This document shows, piece by piece, positions 223 to 16,330 of a stretch of 64,000 bases of DNA. The notes under the pieces are model-generated. The model was given only the letters and a program-made list of their open reading frames with translations. It searched no databases and was not told where the DNA came from. The stretch is from assembly GCA_020832375.1 (NCBI GenBank), contig JAFIEW010000001.1, positions 55,267 to 119,266 of the forward strand. The letters run 5' to 3'. Position 1 is the first letter of the stretch; each line of letters starts with the position of its first letter. The stretch is from Cyclobacteriaceae bacterium. GTDB taxonomy: Bacteria; Bacteroidota; Bacteroidia; Cytophagales; Cyclobacteriaceae. The position numbers and the translations under genes were made by a program.

Positions 223-428
223 AGCCATCATCATGCTCAGGCTTTAGAATTTCACTGAGCAGTATGTTTCTACCGCTAAAAGGGAAAACAGCAAAAATTA
301 GATTGCTTAGCGATCATTGTCCCTTAATAACAATTCAAAAAAATAAAGAAACGATTATTTCACCTATCTAATCGGAATATCCCTTCAAAACCACTAAATT
401 GACCTTTCAAAAGAAGGAAATACCCAAA

Positions 429-3400
429 ATGAAGATGAAGCGAATAAAGCTGAAGGCTGCACTAAACAGTGCATTTTTAAAGGTGAAGCCCAATCGAGTG
501 GCAATTGAGCAATTCAAAACTAACCTCATCCAGCTCTTAGATCGAAGCAATGAGCATGAGTCGGAAGAGTTTCATAAAAACTTAGTAAGCGACTTTCTTA
601 AAAAAACCTATTACGACCCCCAGCACTTTATCAACACAAAGGGACGCAATGATCTAGTCATTCACAATGGTAAGGAAGCGAAAAGCAGCGTAGGCGTAAT
701 TATTGAAGCTAAAAAGCCCACCAATAAGAGTGAAATGGTGAGCACGAACAAGCTGAACACCAAGGCTTTTCAAGAATTGATGCTATACTACCTACGAGAG
801 CGAATCTCACTTAAAAACCTTGAGGTAAAGCATTTGGTGATTACCAATATCTACGAATGGTATATTTTTGATGTGACTACCTTTGATCGGCTATTTGCTC
901 AAAACAAAACTTTGGTCAAGCAATTCGAAGATTTTGAAGCGGGACGACTAGCCGATACTAAAACCGACTTTTTTTATAAACAAATTGCCGAACCTTTCCT
1001 ATCAGCAATCACGCAAGAGGTGGATTTCGTCTATTTCAACTTGCTAGATTATGAAAAAGTCTTACGCAATGAAAACAAATCCGATGACAATCAACTGATC
1101 GCACTCTTCAAATTGCTCTCACCAGAGCATCTGCTCAAGCTTCCTTTTGCCAATGACAGTAATAGCCTCGACAAGCGATTTTATAATGAGTTGCTTCATA
1201 TTATCGGACTAGCGGAGACGAAGGAGGGTAGCAAAAAGCTCATTGGCCGAAAGAAAGCCGGAGAGCGCAATAGCGGAAGCATACTGGAAGATGCGATCAT
1301 ACAGCTCGACAGCATGGACAAGCTCAGCCGTCTTGACCGACCTGAGCAATATGGCAACTCGAGGGAAGAACGGCTTTTTCAGGTAGCACTAGAGCTGAGC
1401 ATTACCTGGATCAACCGTATCTTATTTTTGAAGCTCCTAGAGGCGCAACTCATCACCTACCACGGCGGGAGCAAGGAATATGCCTTTTTGAATCTCGACA
1501 CCCTCAAAAACTATGACGACCTCAACAGTCTGTTTTTTCAGGTGTTGGCACGAAAATACGAAGACCGCAATGAGGATGTGAAGCAACTATTCGAAAAAGT
1601 ACCTTATTTAAACTCTTCTCTTTTTGAACCTACTGACCTGGAGCATACCACGCTCTCCATTAGTAACCTGAAAGACGATAAGGAAATACCACTTCTAGCG
1701 AGTACGGTACTGAAAGATGAGCAAGGTAAAAAACGGACAGGATCACTACCCACCTTGGCTTATCTTTTTGCTTTTTTGAATGCCTACGACTTTAGTAGCG
1801 AGGGATCGGAAGCCATACAAGAGGAAAACAAAACCCTGATCAATGCCTCAGTTTTAGGCTTGATTTTCGAAAAGATCAATGGCTATAAAGACGGCTCTTT
1901 TTTCACGCCCGGCTTCATTACCATGTATATGTGTCGGGAGACCATTCGCAAAGCCGTGGTGCAGAAGTTCAACGAAAGCAAAGGCTGGGAATGTAAGGAA
2001 TTTGATGAGCTTTACGACAAGATTGAAGACCGCAATGAGGCCAATGCTATCGTCAATAGCCTCAAAATCTGTGACCCTGCCGTAGGCTCGGGACACTTTT
2101 TGGTGTCGGCACTCAATGAGATGATCGCTATCAAGCACGAATTGAGAATTTTGCAAGATCGCCAAGGCAAGCGTCTAAAAGAGTATGCCGTAGAAGTGGT
2201 CAATGATGAATTGATCGTGACAGATGAGGAAGGTGAGCTTTTTGAATACCACCCCAACAGCAAAGAGAGCCAACGGGTACAGGAGGCTTTTTTTCATGAG
2301 AAGCAAAGCATTATTGAAAACTGCCTCTTTGGTGTGGACATCAATCCCAATTCGGTGAAGATCTGCCGATTGCGATTGTGGATTGAGCTCTTGAAAAATG
2401 CCTACTATAAAAATGCTACCGAGCTAGAAACCCTCCCCAATATCGACATCAACATCAAGTGTGGCAATTCATTGGTTAGCAGGTTTGGCATTGATGCAGA
2501 CTTGAAGAAAGCACTAAAAAGCAACAAACATCATTGGACTATTGACAGCTACCGACAGGCGGTATCCACCTATCGTAATGCTCAAAGCAAGGAGGAGAAA
2601 CGCGAAATGCAGCGGTGGATCGAAAACATCAAATCAGACTTTCGCTCAGAAATCGCAAAAAACGACCCTAAGATCAAGCGAAAAGCACTATTGGGTGGTG
2701 AGTTGTATAACCTGACCATGCAGCAGGGTCTATTTGAAGAAAGTGCAAAGCAAAAAAAGCAAAGAGAGGCTAAAATCGCGAAGATTGAAGCATCATTGGA
2801 AAAGCTCGATCATGAGATCGAAGACATTAAGTCTAACAAAATTTTTGAAAATGCCTTTGAATGGAGATTTGAATTCCCCGAAGTACTCAATGACGAGGGT
2901 GATTTTGTGGGATTTGATGTAGTGATTGGTAACCCGCCTTATATCAGGCAGGAGGAGTTTTCTGATTTGAAACCATATTTAAAATCACGATTTAAAGTCT
3001 ATAATTCCATTTCTGACTTGCTCACTTATTTTGTGGAATTAAGTTTCGATATTTTATCTTCCTATGGAACATTTCAATATATAATATCTAATAAATTTAC
3101 ACGCACAAATTATGGGAAAGTGTTGCGAAAGTTTCTATTAGAAAACACGAATCTTACTCATTTTTTAGACTTTAGTGGTATTCCTGTTTTTGATGAGGCA
3201 ACTGTTGATGCCGCAATTATAGGATTTCAAAAGGCAAAAACAGTAAAATCCAATCTTTTATACGCTAACATTATTAAAGAAAATTTATCTATTCAGAATT
3301 TTAACGAATTTTTAGAAGCCAACGCTATTAACATAAAACAGACAGTTTTATCTGAAAATATATGGCAAATAAATAATCAGCAAAGTGAAGAAATAAAATT

Positions 3401-4256
3401 AAAAGTAGAATCCCAAGGAAAGAAACTTAAAAATTGTCATATATCTATTAATTATGGAATAAAAACAGGTCTTAACGAGGCTTTTGTAGTGAAAGGGGAA
3501 TTAAAGAGTAGAGTTTTTAGTGAGGAAAAAAACAGCATCCCTTTTTTAAAGCCTATTTTAAGAGGAAGAGATATACAAAAATGGTTACCGGATTACAATA
3601 ATCTATGGTTAATTAACATCCCAAAAGGTTACACAATAAAAACAAAGTTAAATATTATGGAGGTTAATGATTCTCCTCCGCGGTATGGTAATGTGGAATA
3701 TGATGAAGCCTATGAATGGTTTAAGAATAATCATCCAATTATAGCAAAGCACTTAGAGGGCTTCAAAGATAAAGCTGCAAAAAGAAAAGACAAGGGTGAT
3801 TTTTGGTGGGAGCAAAGAGCTTGTTCTTATTTAAATGATTTTGATACACCTAAAATAATTTATCCAAATATGACAAAATTCTTACCTTTTGTAATCGATC
3901 TAGATTCTCATTATTTCCACAATGATAAGTCATTCCATTTAATAACAAATAGAATTTTTTGGCATGGCTCATTCTTTAATTCAAAGCTTTTTAAATTTTG
4001 TTTTCAAAATAGCTTCCCAGAACTTCTTGGTGGAACAAAAGAATTGAGAAAAATATTTTTCGAACAAATTCCAGTTAAAGAAATATCAGAAGAGCAGGAA
4101 ATACCTTTCAAAAGATTAGTCAAACAAATCTTATCAATTAAAAAACAAAACCCTCAAGCGGACACCACAGACTTAGAAAACCAAATAGACCAGCTAGTAT
4201 ATGCGCTTTATGGCTTGACGGAGGAAGAGATTCGGATTGTGGAGGGGAGTGTTTAA
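429..4256 (+). CDS. Type IIG (Eco57I/PglX-like) single-chain restriction endonuclease + N6-adenine DNA methyltransferase
   Basis: ORF 399..4256 (TTG at 399, first ATG at 429). Motifs: PD-(D/E)xK-like signature D85...E103-A-K105 (NDLVIHNG...VIIEAKKP, nt 651-713); SAM motif I DPAVGSGHFL (from nt 2073); family-typical NIKCGNSL; catalytic motif IV VVIGNPPY (NPPY nt 2931-2942). It also has a long C-terminal putative target-recognition region and a conserved tail LVYALYGLTEEEI. Confidence 0.85.
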   Translation: MKMKRIKLKAALNSAFLKVKPNRVAIEQFKTNLIQLLDRSNEHESEEFHKNLVSDFLKKTYYDPQHFINTKGRNDLVIHNGKEAKSSVGVIIEAKKPTNKSEMVSTNKLNTKAFQELMLYYLRERISLKNLEVKHLVITNIYEWYIFDVTTFDRLFAQNKTLVKQFEDFEAGRLADTKTDFFYKQIAEPFLSAITQEVDFVYFNLLDYEKVLRNENKSDDNQLIALFKLLSPEHLLKLPFANDSNSLDKRFYNELLHIIGLAETKEGSKKLIGRKKAGERNSGSILEDAIIQLDSMDKLSRLDRPEQYGNSREERLFQVALELSITWINRILFLKLLEAQLITYHGGSKEYAFLNLDTLKNYDDLNSLFFQVLARKYEDRNEDVKQLFEKVPYLNSSLFEPTDLEHTTLSISNLKDDKEIPLLASTVLKDEQGKKRTGSLPTLAYLFAFLNAYDFSSEGSEAIQEENKTLINASVLGLIFEKINGYKDGSFFTPGFITMYMCRETIRKAVVQKFNESKGWECKEFDELYDKIEDRNEANAIVNSLKICDPAVGSGHFLVSALNEMIAIKHELRILQDRQGKRLKEYAVEVVNDELIVTDEEGELFEYHPNSKESQRVQEAFFHEKQSIIENCLFGVDINPNSVKICRLRLWIELLKNAYYKNATELETLPNIDINIKCGNSLVSRFGIDADLKKALKSNKHHWTIDSYRQAVSTYRNAQSKEEKREMQRWIENIKSDFRSEIAKNDPKIKRKALLGGELYNLTMQQGLFEESAKQKKQREAKIAKIEASLEKLDHEIEDIKSNKIFENAFEWRFEFPEVLNDEGDFVGFDVVIGNPPYIRQEEFSDLKPYLKSRFKVYNSISDLLTYFVELSFDILSSYGTFQYIISNKFTRTNYGKVLRKFLLENTNLTHFLDFSGIPVFDEATVDAAIIGFQKAKTVKSNLLYANIIKENLSIQNFNEFLEANAINIKQTVLSENIWQINNQQSEEIKLKVESQGKKLKNCHISINYGIKTGLNEAFVVKGELKSRVFSEEKNSIPFLKPILRGRDIQKWLPDYNNLWLINIPKGYTIKTKLNIMEVNDSPPRYGNVEYDEAYEWFKNNHPIIAKHLEGFKDKAAKRKDKGDFWWEQRACSYLNDFDTPKIIYPNMTKFLPFVIDLDSHYFHNDKSFHLITNRIFWHGSFFNSKLFKFCFQNSFPELLGGTKELRKIFFEQIPVKEISEEQEIPFKRLVKQILSIKKQNPQADTTDLENQIDQLVYALYGLTEEEIRIVEGSV

Positions 4257-4404
4257 GGTGGCTTTTAAAATGTATTTAGTTATGAAGATGGCATCATAAA
4301 AAAAATTGATTTGTTGTTTTTTTAGCGTTAAAACACTGTTTAAATCTTATGTAAAATTAAAGGCCAATTATTTTAAGGTATTCAACTTATATTCTTTTGA
4401 CATT

Positions 4405-4412
4405 TAGCTTTG
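4405..4412 (+). promoter_or_regulatory. Candidate Bacteroidota -7 promoter box (TAgcTTTG) for the DUF262-HEPN operon
   Basis: TAGCTTTG matches the TAnnTTTG -7 consensus and lies 38 nt upstream of the ATG at 4450. No clean -33 TTTG at the expected spacing. Confidence 0.3.
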
Positions 4413-4449
4413 ATATATGTAGATTAGGTAATTATAAATTAGATTCTCT

Positions 4450-5613
4450 ATGGAACAGCTAGAAGAGGTTAAGATCTCAGAACTTGAAAAAGAAATTACT
4501 CATGAAAGAGAAAGGCTATCGAGTGATAGAATGGATATATCATTTGGAGAGCTTATTAATCTATACAAGAGTAAAGAGCTTATCATCAGACCTGAATATC
4601 AGAGACTATATAGATGGAATGATAAACAAAAAACAGCTTTAATAGAGTCTATTCTATTAAATATCCCTATACCACCAATATTTGTAGCAGAAGATGAAGA
4701 TGGTATTTGGGAATTGGTTGATGGTTTACAGAGGGTAACAACCTTTATCAGCTTTTTTGGGGAGCTGTCGGAAGACTTAACGATTAGCTACGAAGAAAAT
4801 GAGGATGATAATGAATTAGATGCATCTTCAGATTTAAATGAAAAATATAAAAAGGAAGACGGTCTAGAACTATTGAATAAATGGACTTTAGAAGCGGGGA
4901 GTTTAATCAAAAGCCTTGAAGGACTCAATTTTGATACTTTGCCTAAAAAATACATTATAAATCTCAAAAGAGCTGTATGCAGAGTTGAAATCCTAAGAGG
5001 AGAAAGTAATACTGCCATGAAGTATGAACTTTTCAAAAGATTAAACTCAGGTGGTTCCAAACTTACCCCTCAAGAAATTAGAAACGCTATTTACAGAGGA
5101 ATAAACCCTGTTATAAATGAATTAATACTAGATCTTTCAAGAAATAAAACTTTTGTGAAGCTTACGACATTAAGTAAGCAAAAAAAACAAGAACTCTACG
5201 ATCAAGAGCTAATTTTACGCTTTGTGGCATTATTAAATAATGTAGATAATGTCAATAATAATCTTGAAAACTATCTTGATCATTTCATGGAGACTAAAGT
5301 ATCCTCGGAGGATTTTAATGAAAGTTTCTATAAATCATTGTTTAATGATGTTTATGAATTGCTGGAAGAGGTTGGTGACGATAAAATCTTCAGAAATGAC
5401 GGAAATTTATTTGTCCCAGCTTTATATGAGGGGATAACCATTGGTATCGCCCAAAATATTGAAAAATATCGTTCAAACCCGCATCTTATTTCATCTAAAA
5501 TAGCAGAGTTAAAACTAGATGAAGATTTCAAGCGATTTTCAGGATCAGCATCCAATAGTAGATCAAGAATAAAAAAACGATTGCAGCGAGCCAATGAAAT
5601 TTTTGCTTCATAA
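4450..5613 (+). CDS. DUF262 (ParB/Srx-fold, GmrS-like) domain protein without a DUF1524/His-Me nuclease domain
   Basis: 387-aa ORF. Shows the DUF262 signatures PEYQRLYRW (aa 48-56), VDGLQRVTT (DGLQR aa 91-95, nt 4720-4734) and LFKRLNSGGSKLTPQEIRNA. The C-terminal ~190 aa has no HNH/DUF1524-like histidine motif. Very AT-rich. Confidence 0.85.
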   Translation: MEQLEEVKISELEKEITHERERLSSDRMDISFGELINLYKSKELIIRPEYQRLYRWNDKQKTALIESILLNIPIPPIFVAEDEDGIWELVDGLQRVTTFISFFGELSEDLTISYEENEDDNELDASSDLNEKYKKEDGLELLNKWTLEAGSLIKSLEGLNFDTLPKKYIINLKRAVCRVEILRGESNTAMKYELFKRLNSGGSKLTPQEIRNAIYRGINPVINELILDLSRNKTFVKLTTLSKQKKQELYDQELILRFVALLNNVDNVNNNLENYLDHFMETKVSSEDFNESFYKSLFNDVYELLEEVGDDKIFRNDGNLFVPALYEGITIGIAQNIEKYRSNPHLISSKIAELKLDEDFKRFSGSASNSRSRIKKRLQRANEIFAS

Positions 5614-5630
5614 ATGTTGACTAGTTTGTT

Positions 5631-6299
5631 ATGGCTTTCATAGACGATATTGATTCCGATATAGAAGAAAGAACAACAGCTATTTTTGAGATTGAAAGAG
5701 TCCTTTTTTCAAACAGATTCAAATTTACATCTCTACAATTGGATATCTTTTCAGTTCAATCTGTAGCTATGATCTATTCTATTTGGGAAGGTTTCATACA
5801 AAAGGCATTTGTAAGATATGCTGAAGAACTAAATAAAAGGAAAATAAAGATAACCACAGCAAGTGACAACTTATTAATCTTTTATATGGAAACTAACTTT
5901 GCGCAACTTAAAAATTATCCAAATAAGCTAAATAAAAAAACAGCCTTCTTTAGTGACCTTCAATCATTTTATGTAAACAATGAATTAAATTTTAATTCAA
6001 GTATCAACACACAAAGCAATGTAAACTTTGAGGTGATGAACGGACTACTTCAATCATTTTGTCTAGAAAAATTTCCCGAAAATTGGAAAAATTATCGACG
6101 TCCAGACCCAAACTTGAAGGATTCATTAAAAACTTTTTTAAATTATAGGAATGCAGTAGCTCATGGCGGTGATATTAGCTCTGAGGAAAAAGTTACACAA
6201 GAGGTATTTGATAAATACAAAAAACTAGTTGATAGTTTGATGTATGAAATCATGTTTAAAATGGTAGAAGGTCTAAATAATCAGACTTACCTTAAGTGA
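5631..6299 (+). CDS. HEPN-superfamily protein (MAE_28990/RiboL-PSP-like), predicted RNase
   Basis: 222-aa ORF starting 17 nt after the DUF262 stop. Rx4H motif in LNYRNAVAHGGD (R173...H178, nt 6147-6164) near the C-terminus, as in HEPN ribonucleases. Composition looks helix-prone. Subfamily assignment is from memory. Confidence 0.7.
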   Translation: MAFIDDIDSDIEERTTAIFEIERVLFSNRFKFTSLQLDIFSVQSVAMIYSIWEGFIQKAFVRYAEELNKRKIKITTASDNLLIFYMETNFAQLKNYPNKLNKKTAFFSDLQSFYVNNELNFNSSINTQSNVNFEVMNGLLQSFCLEKFPENWKNYRRPDPNLKDSLKTFLNYRNAVAHGGDISSEEKVTQEVFDKYKKLVDSLMYEIMFKMVEGLNNQTYLK

Positions 6300-6321
6300 A
6301 TACTTGCTTAGATGTTAATAA

Positions 6322-6618
6322 TTTCCAAAAGTTACCACCAAAACCAAAGCCATTTGTAAAAAAATAAAGGACATAGGTAATGATATTCCTTGGAGATTAT
6401 TTTGTTATCGAGTAAATGAAACCATTGTCGTTCTTTTCAATGGTGGTATTAAGCAAACGCAGGCTACACAAGACAGCGAAAGTCAAAGCCTAAAGTTTCA
6501 CGAAGCGCCAACATTTGCCAAAAAGATGGAAGAAGCTTTACAATCCGAAATGATTGAAATATCTGATGATCAGAGGTATTTAAAAAGCTTTGACGGATCA
6601 ACAAACCTAATATTTTAG
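6322..6618 (+). pseudogene. 5'-truncated HigB/Gp49-like (RelE superfamily) toxin remnant
   Basis: Frame 1 is open from 6322 to TAG at 6616-6618, with no ATG/GTG/TTG near its 5' end (first ATG gives only ~26 aa). The translation ...DIPWRLFCYRVNETIVVLFNGGIKQTQATQD... resembles the C-terminal core of phage Gp49/HigB-type toxins (YRI.Y....VVLL.GF.KKTQKTP). The stop lies 4 nt before the HTH gene. Confidence 0.5.
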
Positions 6619-6622
6619 ACCC

Positions 6623-6892
6623 ATGCGAAGTAAAACCGTAGATCGATTACTTAAAAGTACTCCTCATGACGTAAAAATTTTTGTGGATTGGTATGCAGGC
6701 CTAGTGGTTCGCATCAATGAGCTTTTGCGAGAACACGAGATGAACAAAAAGAAACTAGACAAAAAACCATCTGAAATTTTCAAATGGTTTAATGGTGAGC
6801 ATAATTTCACCTTGCAGTCTTTGGCAAAATTATCAGCTGAATTAGGAGAGCCGTTACTAGAAGTCCCGAAAAAAAGTGAAAGATTATATTGA
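6623..6892 (+). CDS. XRE-family helix-turn-helix protein, HigA-like antitoxin
   Basis: 89 aa. KKPSEIFKWFNGEHNFTLQSLAKLSAELGEPL matches the recognition helix and C-terminal part of Bacteroidota HTH antitoxins (PSEISKWLSG.HNFTL.TLAKLE..LG). Its position directly after the toxin remnant fits a toxin-antitoxin operon. Confidence 0.6.
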   Translation: MRSKTVDRLLKSTPHDVKIFVDWYAGLVVRINELLREHEMNKKKLDKKPSEIFKWFNGEHNFTLQSLAKLSAELGEPLLEVPKKSERLY

Positions 6893-16146: not shown

Positions 16147-16220
16147 TCCTCCTTAGCTCAGTTGGTTAGAGCATCTGACTGTTAATCAGAGGGTCCCTGG
16201 TTCGAGCCCAGGAGGAGGAG
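16147..16220 (+). tRNA. tRNA-Asn (anticodon GTT), copy 1
   Basis: Cloverleaf read by eye: acceptor TCCTCCT/AGGAGGA, D-arm GCTC-AGTTGGTTAG-AGC, anticodon loop CT-GTT-AA, T-arm CCTGG-TTCGAGC-CCAGG, discriminator G. CCA is not encoded. Confidence 0.95.
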
Positions 16221-16253
16221 CAAAAGTCATAAAGACCTCTCATTTTATTAAAT

Positions 16254-16327
16254 TCCTCCTTAGCTCAGTTGGTTAGAGCATCTGACTGTTAATCAGAGGG
16301 TCCCTGGTTCGAGCCCAGGAGGAGGAG
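16254..16327 (+). tRNA. tRNA-Asn (anticodon GTT), copy 2, identical to copy 1
   Basis: Same 74-nt sequence repeated after a 33-nt spacer. Confidence 0.95.
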
Positions 16328-16330
16328 CGA

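What the first reader, a model, noticed from the sequence alone, without database searches (positions are those of the whole stretch)
4450..6299. DUF262 (ParB/GmrS-like) protein paired with an Rx4H HEPN protein: candidate uncharacterised two-gene defence module
Seen in sequence:
- Two co-oriented ORFs separated by 17 nt, both far more AT-rich than the flanking chromosome.
- The first ORF carries the DUF262 signatures (PEYQRLYRW, VDGLQRVTT, FKRLNSGGSKLTPQEIRNA).
- Its C-terminal ~190 aa shows no His-Me/HNH (DUF1524) motif.
- The second ORF is a 222-aa protein with a C-terminal LNYRNAVAHGG (Rx4H), the catalytic signature of HEPN ribonucleases.

Established knowledge: in the characterised DUF262 defence proteins (GmrSD, BrxU, SspE), the DUF262 NTPase/sensor domain is fused to a DUF1524 DNA nuclease.

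Inference: here the DNase appears to be replaced by a separately encoded HEPN RNase. That would mean a nucleotide- or modified-DNA-sensing DUF262 component controlling an RNA-targeting, abortive-infection-type effector. I recall that comparative surveys of HEPN families noted genomic linkage with ParB/DUF262 genes, but I know of no experimental characterisation. Location next to an RM enzyme and a toxin-antitoxin remnant fits a defence island.
Basis: partly seen in the sequence, partly recalled or inferred. Interest (0 to 1): 0.8.

Follow-up and report, generated by a model that had tools for sequence, protein, structure and literature searches.

The report
DUF262–HEPN (PD-T4-2-type) phage-defence gene pair
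The two genes are real and almost certainly a phage-defence pair, a DNA/nucleotide-sensing DUF262 protein plus a HEPN RNase, but this pairing was described in 2013 and a distant E. coli counterpart (PD-T4-2) was shown to block phage T4 in 2022, so it is a new member of a known kind.

Summary
ORF1 (4450-5613, 387 aa) is a DUF262/GmrSD_N protein with no DUF1524. ORF2 (5631-6299, 222 aa) is a MAE_28990/RiboL-PSP HEPN with an invariant RNxxxH motif. The gap is 17 nt and GC is 0.315 against 0.393 for the window.

The pair is an obligate operon. 35 of 36 usable HEPN-anchored genome loci have the DUF262 gene directly upstream, and 58 of 58 DUF262-anchored metagenome loci have the HEPN gene directly downstream. 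Spacing is -8 to +19 nt, the flanks vary, and A and B distances correlate (Mantel r = 0.92).

The claim that it is uncharacterised fails. Anantharaman et al. [quoted passage not shown] Vassallo et al. (2022) validated PD-T4-2 ("DUF262, HEPN"; B matches the same two Pfam HEPN families) against T4. It is in PADLOC and DefenseFinder.

One nuance remains. This is a divergent clade: PADLOC matches ORF1 (NsnA 3e-63, PD-T4-2_A 2e-48) but not ORF2, so automated catalogues probably miss it.

The mechanism is still unknown. Most likely the ParB-like NTPase/DNA-binding sensor licenses a toxic HEPN RNase. Verdict: new member of a known kind, interest about 0.3.

The parts
4450..5613 (+). Gene A: DUF262-only protein (387 aa). 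The likely sensor/regulator subunit.
   Evidence: ORF. Pfam GmrSD_N 7e-31 with no DUF1524. PADLOC NsnA 3.4e-63 (aa 15-386) and PD-T4-2_A 2.1e-48 (aa 33-386). 65-76% identity to homologues across phyla.
4549..5094 (+). ParB-like DUF262 NTPase domain (aa 34-215) carrying motif I QRLYRW (aa 51-56), motif II DGLQR (aa 91-95) and motif III FKRLN (aa 195-199). It includes a variable acidic low-confidence insert at aa 113-139.
   Evidence: Pfam envelope. All three motifs are invariant in 61 sequences. AF2 gives an alpha/beta fold, with pLDDT below 50 for aa 113-139. Foldseek top hits are CTP-bound ParB 7bnr (prob 0.97) and BrxU 7p9k (prob 0.85).
5068..5610 (+). C-terminal all-helical domain (aa ~207-387), interpreted as a ParBDB-type DNA-binding domain and not a nuclease.
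   Evidence: AF2 predicts about 12 helices and no beta-beta-alpha unit. No His is invariant anywhere in the family. The NsnA profile match covers this region. ParBDB is defined in PMC12065111.
5631..6299 (+). Gene B: stand-alone HEPN protein (222 aa) of the MAE_28990/RiboL-PSP type. The likely RNase effector/toxin.
   Evidence: Pfam PF18737 8e-22 and PF18735 2e-20. AF2 pLDDT 89.5, seven helices. NCBI names homologues 'MAE_28990/MAE_18760 family HEPN-like nuclease'.
6147..6173 (+). HEPN catalytic motif R173-N174-A-V-A-H178-G-G-D181 (Rx4H).
   Evidence: R173, N174, H178, G179, G180 and D181 are invariant in 59 homologues.
4257..4449 (+). 193-nt AT-rich intergenic region upstream of gene A. It holds a sigma-70-like TTGACA-17-TAGATT at 4397-4425 and is a possible own promoter.
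   Evidence: Consensus scan only. The number of sites in the region is not above shuffles. Sequence. Weak evidence, and Bacteroidota promoters differ from sigma-70.

Best explanation
The pair is a self-contained, horizontally mobile two-gene anti-phage module of the DUF262-HEPN (PD-T4-2-type) class.

Gene A is a ParB-like DUF262 NTPase fused to a helical ParBDB-type DNA-binding domain. It has no nuclease of its own.

Gene B is a small HEPN protein whose invariant RNxxxH motif would form an RNase active site, probably as a dimer.

Proposed mechanism:
1. A and B are co-translated from a tight operon and form a complex in which B is held inactive.
2. A binds NTP and surveys DNA. On meeting a phage-specific DNA feature (for example hypermodified cytosines, as in T-even phages, or another replication-associated structure), NTP binding or hydrolysis switches its conformation.
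3. B is released or activated and cleaves cellular and/or phage RNA (tRNA, rRNA or mRNA).
4. Translation stops, and phage production is aborted or arrested.

Shown here: the domain identities, the intact motifs, the absence of a DNase domain, the obligate A-B linkage, co-divergence of A and B, and mobility.

Inferred by analogy (GmrSD/BrxU/SspE for A; HEPN toxins for B; PD-T4-2 for phenotype): DNA/NTP sensing, A-B complex formation, RNase activity, and the defence phenotype.
For: - Domains and motifs.
- A matches the PADLOC defence profiles NsnA and PD-T4-2_A over its full length.
- The A model has a ParB/BrxU-like fold and a helical C-terminal domain.
- From the HEPN side, 35 of 36 usable genome loci have A directly upstream and co-oriented.
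- From the DUF262 side, 58 of 58 metagenome loci have a HEPN directly downstream, including 16 of 16 where A is only 33-49% identical.
- The A-B gap is -8 to +19 nt in 29 loci.
- A and B pairwise distances correlate: Mantel r 0.92, with 0 of 2000 permutations reaching it.
- The flanks are unrelated between loci (housekeeping genes, occasional RM, integrase, transposase) and there is no third conserved gene.
- The same architecture sits in recognised defence/mobile contexts: a P2-like coliphage end region, a lambdoid prophage, IncF and Col plasmids, and a Leptospira plasmid.
- The HEPN module also occurs as the C-terminal tip of an Rhs/YD-repeat protein (L014), which argues that it is an autonomous toxic effector.
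- Literature: PD-T4-2 is 'DUF262, HEPN'. Its B matches PF18735/PF18737 by HHpred. It protects against T4, and its deletion in ECOR65 restores T4 plaquing (PMC9519451).
- Literature: DUF262 acts as an NTPase sensor in GmrSD, BrxU and SspE (PMC10952713; PMC12065111).
Against: - There is no functional data for this clade.
- ORF2 does not hit PADLOC's PD-T4-2_B model. It is not BLAST-detectably similar to most enterobacterial B proteins.
- I could not obtain the ECOR65 PD-T4-2 sequences, so homology to the validated system rests on shared Pfam families, the A-profile match and the shared architecture.
- Foldseek found no significant match between the ORF2 model and any solved HEPN structure (best E 0.85).
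- A is more conserved (about 65% identity) than B (about 50%). That is unusual if A were a fast-evolving sensor of phage proteins, so it points to a conserved ligand instead.
- The ParB-like domain could itself be a nuclease, as Anantharaman et al. assumed.
- Whether PD-T4-2 acts by abortive infection or direct immunity is not stated in the text I could read.
Confidence: 0.72

Rival explanations
1. The pair is primarily a toxin-antitoxin/addiction module. The HEPN protein is the toxin and the DUF262 protein is its cognate antitoxin, neutralising it by binding or by NTP-dependent modification. It would stabilise mobile elements rather than sense phage. This is not mutually exclusive with abortive-infection defence.
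For: The HEPN is autonomous and toxin-like, as shown by the Rhs-HEPN fusion in L014. The bicistronic layout is tight. Related pairs lie on plasmids beside ccdAB and pemIK (L043) and beside RelE/ParE modules (L041, L042). Anantharaman et al. proposed an analogous ParA/Soj-HEPN TA for the sister family MAE_18760.
Against: A 387-aa protein with an intact, invariant NTP-binding ParB pocket and a DNA-binding-type domain is far more elaborate than a typical antitoxin. The related PD-T4-2 gives a phage-defence phenotype. Many chromosomal copies sit between housekeeping genes, where addiction gives no obvious benefit.
Confidence: 0.2
2. This is Type IV-restriction-like direct immunity. The ParB-like DUF262 domain is itself the DNA nuclease or nickase acting on (modified) phage DNA. 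The HEPN protein is an accessory RNA- or nucleotide-binding or regulatory subunit, not the killing effector.
For: Anantharaman et al. called the partner a 'ParB nuclease'. Some ParB-fold proteins have nuclease activity (established knowledge). PD-T4-2 protects against T-even phages with hypermodified DNA, like GmrSD. The pair lies beside RM enzymes in the window and in L025.
Against: In the characterised DUF262 proteins (GmrSD, BrxU, SspE), cleavage is done by DUF1524 and DUF262 is an NTPase/sensor. The HEPN RNxxxH catalytic motif is invariant in 59 sequences, as expected for an active enzyme. The same HEPN is used as an Rhs toxin tip.
Confidence: 0.1
3. The locus is a degenerate Menshen (NsnABC) locus: an NsnA gene that has lost NsnB/NsnC and merely sits next to an unrelated HEPN gene.
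For: The best PADLOC hit of ORF1 is NsnA (3.4e-63, full length).
Against: No NsnB-type ATPase or NsnC gene is present in the window near the pair. No such gene lies adjacent to the pair in the 29 genome loci whose flanks were profiled, and in 58 of 58 metagenome loci the gene directly after A is the HEPN. The HEPN partner is invariably present and co-diverges with A. Every DUF262-HEPN A protein tested scores NsnA above PD-T4-2_A, which shows that the NsnA model is simply broad.
Confidence: 0.02

Closest known systems
PD-T4-2 (E. coli ECOR65; Vassallo et al. 2022, Nat Microbiol, PMC9519451)
   Same: It is a two-gene operon with gene A first, carrying DUF262/PF03235 and no DUF1524. Gene B is a small stand-alone HEPN whose best Pfam matches are PF18735 (RiboL-PSP) and PF18737 (MAE_28990), the same two families as ORF2. 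ORF1 matches PADLOC PD-T4-2_A at full length, E 2e-48.
   Different: It is a different sequence clade. ORF2 (222 aa) does not hit the 168-position PD-T4-2_B model. The PD-T4-2 operon is 1540 bp against 1850 bp here. Hosts differ (Bacteroidota MAG against E. coli). No phenotype is known for this clade. I could not do a direct sequence comparison with the ECOR65 proteins.
[quoted passage not shown] 2013, Biol Direct, PMC3710099; Pfam PF18737)
   Same: It is the same gene pair family. Microcystis loci (L004, L006, L007, L010) carry A at about 62% and B at about 49-50% identity to the window pair. The ParB/DUF262 linkage had already been noted.
   Different: The 2013 description is purely computational and calls the partner a nuclease. 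I found no consistent DNA-methylase linkage: the flanks are variable and only the window and L025 have a Type IIG enzyme upstream.
Menshen NsnABC (Millman et al. 2022; Li et al. 2025, NAR, PMC12065111)
   Same: ORF1 has the NsnA architecture, ParB-DUF262 plus a helical ParBDB domain, and is best matched by the PADLOC NsnA model. The concept is also shared: a DUF262 sensor with a separately encoded, fast-diverging nuclease effector.
   Different: There is no NsnB ATPase transducer and no inPIN-nuclease NsnC. Here a HEPN gene follows A directly.
GmrSD / BrxU / SspE (Type IV restriction and PT-sensing DUF262-DUF1524 enzymes)
   Same: They share the DUF262 NTPase domain with QRxxxW, DGxQR and FxxxN motifs and a helical middle domain. 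Foldseek hits BrxU 7p9k.
   Different: The DUF1524 His-Me DNase domain is absent (no invariant His). The effector is a separate HEPN, presumably RNA-targeting.
Stand-alone or partnered HEPN defence RNases (DARNA/PD-T7-3, ApeA, AbiV, HepT-MntA, PrrC)
   Same: They share the Rx4-6H HEPN catalytic motif and a likely RNA-cleaving abortive or arrest logic. DARNA shows that a HEPN RNase can be activated by a phage DNA-associated cue (10.64898/2026.02.22.705581).
   Different: The HEPN subfamily differs, and here the sensor is a separately encoded ParB-like NTPase rather than a fused domain, MNT or RM-coupled partner. There is no significant structural match to solved HEPNs.

Membership tests
PD-T4-2-type DUF262-HEPN two-gene defence system | Gene A carries DUF262 (PF03235) and lacks DUF1524/any nuclease domain | tested here: met
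   Pfam finds GmrSD_N only. No His is invariant in the family. The C-terminal half is all-helical.
PD-T4-2-type DUF262-HEPN two-gene defence system | Gene A matches the catalogue profile PD-T4-2_A | tested here: met
   PADLOC PDLC04027: E 2.1e-48, aa 33-386 against profile positions 41-362 of 363. NsnA scores higher, at 3.4e-63.
PD-T4-2-type DUF262-HEPN two-gene defence system | Gene B is a small HEPN of the RiboL-PSP/MAE_28990 type, directly downstream and co-oriented | tested here: met
   PF18737 8e-22 and PF18735 2e-20, with a 17-nt gap. The same families were reported for PD-T4-2B.
PD-T4-2-type DUF262-HEPN two-gene defence system | Gene B matches the catalogue profile PD-T4-2_B (operational criterion of PADLOC) | tested here: not met
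   No hit at E<=1. The model also misses five of the six other DUF262-linked HEPNs tested and hits the sixth only weakly, at 2e-4. I therefore file the pair under the architecture class and not under PD-T4-2 in the strict sense.
PD-T4-2-type DUF262-HEPN two-gene defence system | Confers anti-phage protection | not testable with these tools
   This is shown only for E. coli PD-T4-2 (PMC9519451).
HEPN superfamily | Significant profile match to a HEPN family | tested here: met
   Two Pfam HEPN models are matched well above their gathering scores.
HEPN superfamily | Conserved Rx4-6H motif | tested here: met
   R173, N174 and H178 are invariant in 59 sequences. The motif is also present in distant partners.
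HEPN superfamily | Helical-bundle fold superposable on solved HEPN structures | tested here: inconclusive
   The model is confident (pLDDT 89.5) and all-helical. Foldseek against PDB gives no hit with E<0.8, and HepT, AbiV, Las1 and Cas13b appear only in the noise.
HEPN superfamily | Metal-independent RNase activity | not testable with these tools
   This needs biochemistry.
Menshen (NsnABC) | NsnA-like ParB-DUF262 + ParBDB protein | tested here: met
   PADLOC NsnA 3.4e-63, aa 15-386.
Menshen (NsnABC) | Adjacent NsnB ATPase and NsnC (inPIN + nuclease) genes | tested here: not met
   The neighbours are a HEPN gene, a TA remnant and an RM gene. No ATPase follows A in any of 58 loci.
GmrSD/BrxU/SspE Type IV enzymes | DUF262 NTPase domain with a DGxQR motif | tested here: met
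   DGLQR is invariant. Pfam hit. Foldseek hit to BrxU.
GmrSD/BrxU/SspE Type IV enzymes | Fused (or adjacent) DUF1524 His-Me finger DNase | tested here: not met
   No PF07510 hit at E<=1, no conserved His, and no such gene nearby.
HEPN-MNT type II/VII toxin-antitoxin | Minimal nucleotidyltransferase partner gene | tested here: not met
   The partner is DUF262, not MNT.

The most novel reading that the evidence does not exclude
This highly conserved clade (A about 65% identical from Bacteroidota to Cyanobacteria, Bacillota and Desulfobacterota) could work by a mechanism not yet described for any defence system. A ParB-type nucleotide-switch clamp would load onto a conserved phage DNA feature and allosterically license a separately encoded HEPN RNase, coupling DNA sensing to RNA destruction without any DNase. 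Because current PADLOC models do not recognise its effector, it would also be a widespread system that automated catalogues overlook.
Probability: 0.25. Interest if true: 0.6.

Novelty: new member of a known kind. Interest (0 to 1): 0.3.

Why it matters
The architecture class is known and named, so the locus does not reveal a new kind of system. Three things still make it useful.

1. No mechanism has been published for any DUF262-HEPN system in the library searched. This clade is unusually well conserved: more than 100 invariant positions in A, with absolute A-B linkage. That makes it a good model for asking how a ParB-like NTPase controls an RNase.

2. PADLOC v2 labels A as NsnA or PD-T4-2_A and misses B. 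Such loci are therefore probably under-counted or mis-assigned as orphan Menshen parts, and a broader B profile (for example one built from alignment A2) would fix that.

3. The Rhs-HEPN fusion shows that the same effector is shared between anti-phage and inter-bacterial conflict systems.

Tried and rejected
- **Retrieving the true ECOR65 PD-T4-2 sequences** (QOYX01000002: 338334-339873) for a direct alignment was not possible. tblastn against plasmids and phages, and blastn against E. coli genomes, found five other enterobacterial DUF262-HEPN pairs but none that scores as PD-T4-2 proper. One search was a malformed query.
- **hhalign** of the HEPN family profile against single enterobacterial B sequences gave meaningless probabilities of 1-2%. 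Pfam unifies these proteins instead.
- **Foldseek of the ORF2 model** against PDB gave no significant match. PDB sequence searches with both family profiles found nothing.
- **A conserved third gene, or an obligatory methylase/RM partner** as stated in 2013, was not found. The window RM and the L025 RM are only 25-33% identical.
- **A hidden nuclease in the ORF1 C-terminus** was rejected.
- **The Menshen-remnant reading** was rejected.
- **Promoter and terminator scans** were uninformative: the counts are no higher than in shuffled sequence.
- **tblastn of ORF2 against phage genomes** gave no match.
- **A PDB search with the toxin-like remnant** at 6319-6618 gave no match.
Full report
**1. Observation**

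ORF1 is 4450-5613 (+, 387 aa) and ORF2 is 5631-6299 (+, 222 aa). They are separated by 17 nt.

All the quoted peptide motifs are in the translations. Pfam assigns ORF1 to GmrSD_N/DUF262 (PF03235, E 7e-31, aa 34-215) and nothing else credible. There is no DUF1524 hit even at E<=1.

ORF2 passes two HEPN models far above their thresholds: PF18737 HEPN_MAE_28990 (E 8e-22) and PF18735 HEPN_RiboL-PSP (E 2e-20).

The pair has GC 0.315 against 0.393 for the window. The AT-rich tract actually begins inside the upstream RM gene, at about 2750.

Both proteins are 100% identical to annotated proteins of a Cyclobacteriaceae MAG.

**2. Gene A**

A 61-sequence alignment (A3) shows extraordinary conservation: 65-76% identity between Bacteroidota, Cyanobacteria, Bacillota, Desulfobacterota and others. 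The three DUF262 motifs are all invariant: QRxxxW (Q51, R52, W56), DGxQR (D91-R95) and FxxxN (F195-N199).

No histidine is invariant anywhere in the protein. That excludes a cryptic His-Me/HNH nuclease.

The AF2 model (pLDDT 80) has an N-terminal alpha/beta domain with a disordered, acidic, variable insert at aa 113-139. The C-terminal half (aa ~207-386) is all-helical.

Foldseek's best PDB matches are CTP-bound ParB (7bnr, prob 0.97) and the GmrSD-family enzyme BrxU (7p9k, prob 0.85).

PADLOC matches ORF1 end to end with NsnA (3.4e-63) and PD-T4-2_A (2.1e-48). Li et al. 2025 (PMC12065111) define NsnA as ParB-DUF262 plus an eight-helix 'ParBDB' DNA-binding domain that is also present in GmrSD, SspE and DndB. 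The C-terminal half of ORF1 fits that description.

**3. Gene B**

In 59 homologues (A2), R173, N174, H178, G179, G180 and D181 are invariant. This is the HEPN RNxxxH motif.

The AF2 model is confident (pLDDT 89.5, pTM 0.85) and consists of seven helices. Foldseek finds no significant solved-structure match, and known HEPNs appear only in the noise. PDB sequence searches are empty.

The HEPN assignment thus rests on profiles plus the motif. A fold-level test was inconclusive.

An exhaustive profile search finds 1021 representative clusters at E<=1e-3 (214 at <=1e-10; 36 at <=1e-30). Nearly all the listed hits (the best 150) are stand-alone proteins under about 275 aa, mostly 200-250 aa or shorter fragments.

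**4. Linkage**

From the HEPN side, I fetched 40 loci from species-representative genomes. 36 of them have a usable HEPN with upstream sequence. Of these, 35 have the DUF262 gene immediately upstream on the same strand.

The exceptions are informative:
- L014 is an Rhs/YD-repeat protein with this HEPN fused as its C-terminal tip.
- L023 is cut by a contig end.
- L037, L038 and L040 are HEPN fragments.

From the DUF262 side, I looked at 58 metagenome loci with a near-full A relative and at least 700 nt downstream. All 58 have a HEPN homologue directly downstream (51 near full length, 7 truncated). That includes 16 of 16 loci where A is only 33-49% identical.

The A-B gap is -8 to +19 nt. A and B pairwise distances correlate strongly: Mantel r 0.92, with 0 of 2000 permutations reaching it, and Spearman 0.66. 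Some of that correlation is simply shared history of co-transfer.

The flanking genes are unrelated between loci. They are mostly housekeeping genes, with occasional RM enzymes, integrases and transposases. There is no conserved third gene. The module is a self-contained, mobile two-gene cassette.

**5. Comparison with what is known**

Anantharaman et al. [quoted passage not shown] The Microcystis loci I recovered belong to the same tight clade as the window pair.

Vassallo et al. 2022 (PMC9519451) isolated PD-T4-2 from E. coli ECOR65, annotated 'DUF262, HEPN'. By HHpred, PD-T4-2A is PF03235 and PD-T4-2B is PF18735 (97.8%) and PF18737 (96.9%). It protects against T4 when cloned, and deleting it in ECOR65 restores T4 plaquing.

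Reviews list PD-T4-2, Menshen and Dazbog as DUF262 systems without DUF1524 (PMC10952713; PMC12065111). The architecture is therefore named, catalogued and experimentally validated as a defence system.

I found no paper in the held library that explains its mechanism.

**6. How close the window pair is to the validated system**

I could not obtain the ECOR65 sequences. I did find six other DUF262-HEPN pairs:
- an Enterobacter Col plasmid;
- an E. coli IncF plasmid;
- a Salmonella IncF plasmid;
- a Leptospira plasmid;
- a P2-like coliphage end region;
- a lambdoid prophage in E. coli NRG 857C.

Every B passes a Pfam HEPN threshold.

The five enterobacterial A proteins tested score NsnA above PD-T4-2_A. 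Only the lambdoid-prophage B touches PD-T4-2_B, at 2e-4.

Window A is 26-32% identical to the five enterobacterial A proteins over its full length. Window B is detectably similar only to the Enterobacter B (23%, E 1e-10).

PD-T4-2 in the strict sense is therefore one narrow branch of a broad DUF262-HEPN radiation. In that radiation the sensor is the conserved hub and the HEPN diverges fast. The window pair belongs to the MAE_28990 branch.

A practical consequence follows: PADLOC v2 would not call this locus as a complete system.

**7. Mechanism**

The best-supported model has four steps. A ParB-like NTPase/DNA-binding protein (A) holds or licenses a HEPN RNase (B). Recognition of a phage DNA feature, coupled to NTP binding or hydrolysis, activates B. 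B cleaves RNA and arrests translation.

Shown here are the intact motifs, the absence of a DNase, the obligate linkage and the toxin-like autonomy of B (the Rhs fusion).

Inferred are the sensing, the complex formation, the RNase activity and the phenotype.

A is more conserved than B. That argues for a conserved ligand such as DNA chemistry or a nucleotide, and against a fast-evolving phage protein.

Rival readings are a plain TA/addiction role, a Type IV-like role in which A itself cuts DNA, and a Menshen remnant. They are listed with their tests. The last is effectively excluded.

**8. Verdict**

The novelty class is 'new member of a known kind'. Interest is about 0.3. The residual value lies in the unknown mechanism of the class and in the catalogue blind spot.

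Noticed in passing
L014:5530-6621 (+) (MAG Bacillota, JAJXWH010000076.1): A 363-aa protein with N-terminal RHS/YD repeats (Pfam RHS_repeat, 2.5e-15) is fused directly to a complete MAE_28990-type HEPN module with RNGVAHGGD intact (53% identity to ORF2). There is no DUF262 gene upstream. It looks like the defence effector reused as a polymorphic-toxin tip.
   Followed up: partly
window 399-4256 (+), change point ~2750: The upstream 1285-aa Type IIG RM enzyme (DUF7149 + DUF7814 + Eco57I + TaqI_C; PADLOC REase_MTase_IIG, 2.5e-295) is compositionally mosaic. GC is 0.39-0.46 up to about 2750 and 0.28-0.33 afterwards, the same as the DUF262-HEPN pair. This suggests that its methylase-C-terminal/specificity half arrived by recombination together with, or from the same source as, the neighbouring cassette.
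   Followed up: no
window 6319-6892 (+): A 99-codon open frame at 6319-6618 has no start codon before 6526. Its sequence (…DIPWRLFCYRVNETIVVLFNGGIKQTQ…) resembles, from memory, the C-terminal half of a Gp49/HigB-like toxin. An intact 89-aa HTH_3 protein follows at 6623-6892 (PADLOC PDC-M64C, 4.7e-25).
   Followed up: partly
L046:1895-5800 (E. coli NRG 857C chromosome, NC_017634.1): A DUF262 (387 aa) + HEPN (182 aa) pair lies inside the head-gene block of a lambdoid prophage, next to a major capsid gene annotated as incomplete (missing its N-terminus). So a defence cassette has apparently inserted into, and disabled, a prophage structural gene. About 31 E. coli chromosomes carry this DUF262 gene.
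   Followed up: partly
L042:3992-5739 (Leptospira noguchii plasmid p2, NZ_CP091939.1): The DUF262 gene is annotated as two CDS (94 aa + 267 aa), although tblastn aligns 94% of ORF1 in one piece. It is probably frameshifted or interrupted, while the downstream MAE_28990 HEPN is intact. It could be a decaying system, or a HEPN left without its partner.
   Followed up: no
L036, L037, L038, L040 (genome loci); L056, L074, L075, L084, L085, L106 (metagenome loci): Several loci carry truncated or fragmentary HEPN genes (and in L036 a fragmented DUF262 gene). The cassette is evidently subject to frequent decay, and the effector is the part most often broken.
   Followed up: no
PADLOC-DB v2.0.0 models PDLC03877 (NsnA), PDLC04027 (PD-T4-2_A), PDLC04028 (PD-T4-2_B): All six DUF262-HEPN A proteins tested (window plus five others) score higher on NsnA than on PD-T4-2_A. 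Six of the seven B proteins tested miss PD-T4-2_B altogether. Automated annotation will therefore tend to report such loci as orphan Menshen NsnA or as nothing.
   Followed up: yes
window 4786-4866 (ORF1 aa 113-139): A variable, strongly acidic, low-confidence insert (…EENEDDNELDASSDLNEKYKKED…) lies inside the otherwise near-invariant ParB-like domain (pLDDT below 50). Its role is unknown; it could be autoinhibitory or a DNA mimic.
   Followed up: no
window 16147-16328 (+): Two tandem tRNA-Asn(GTT) genes lie about 10 kb downstream of the pair. No link to the island was established.
   Followed up: no
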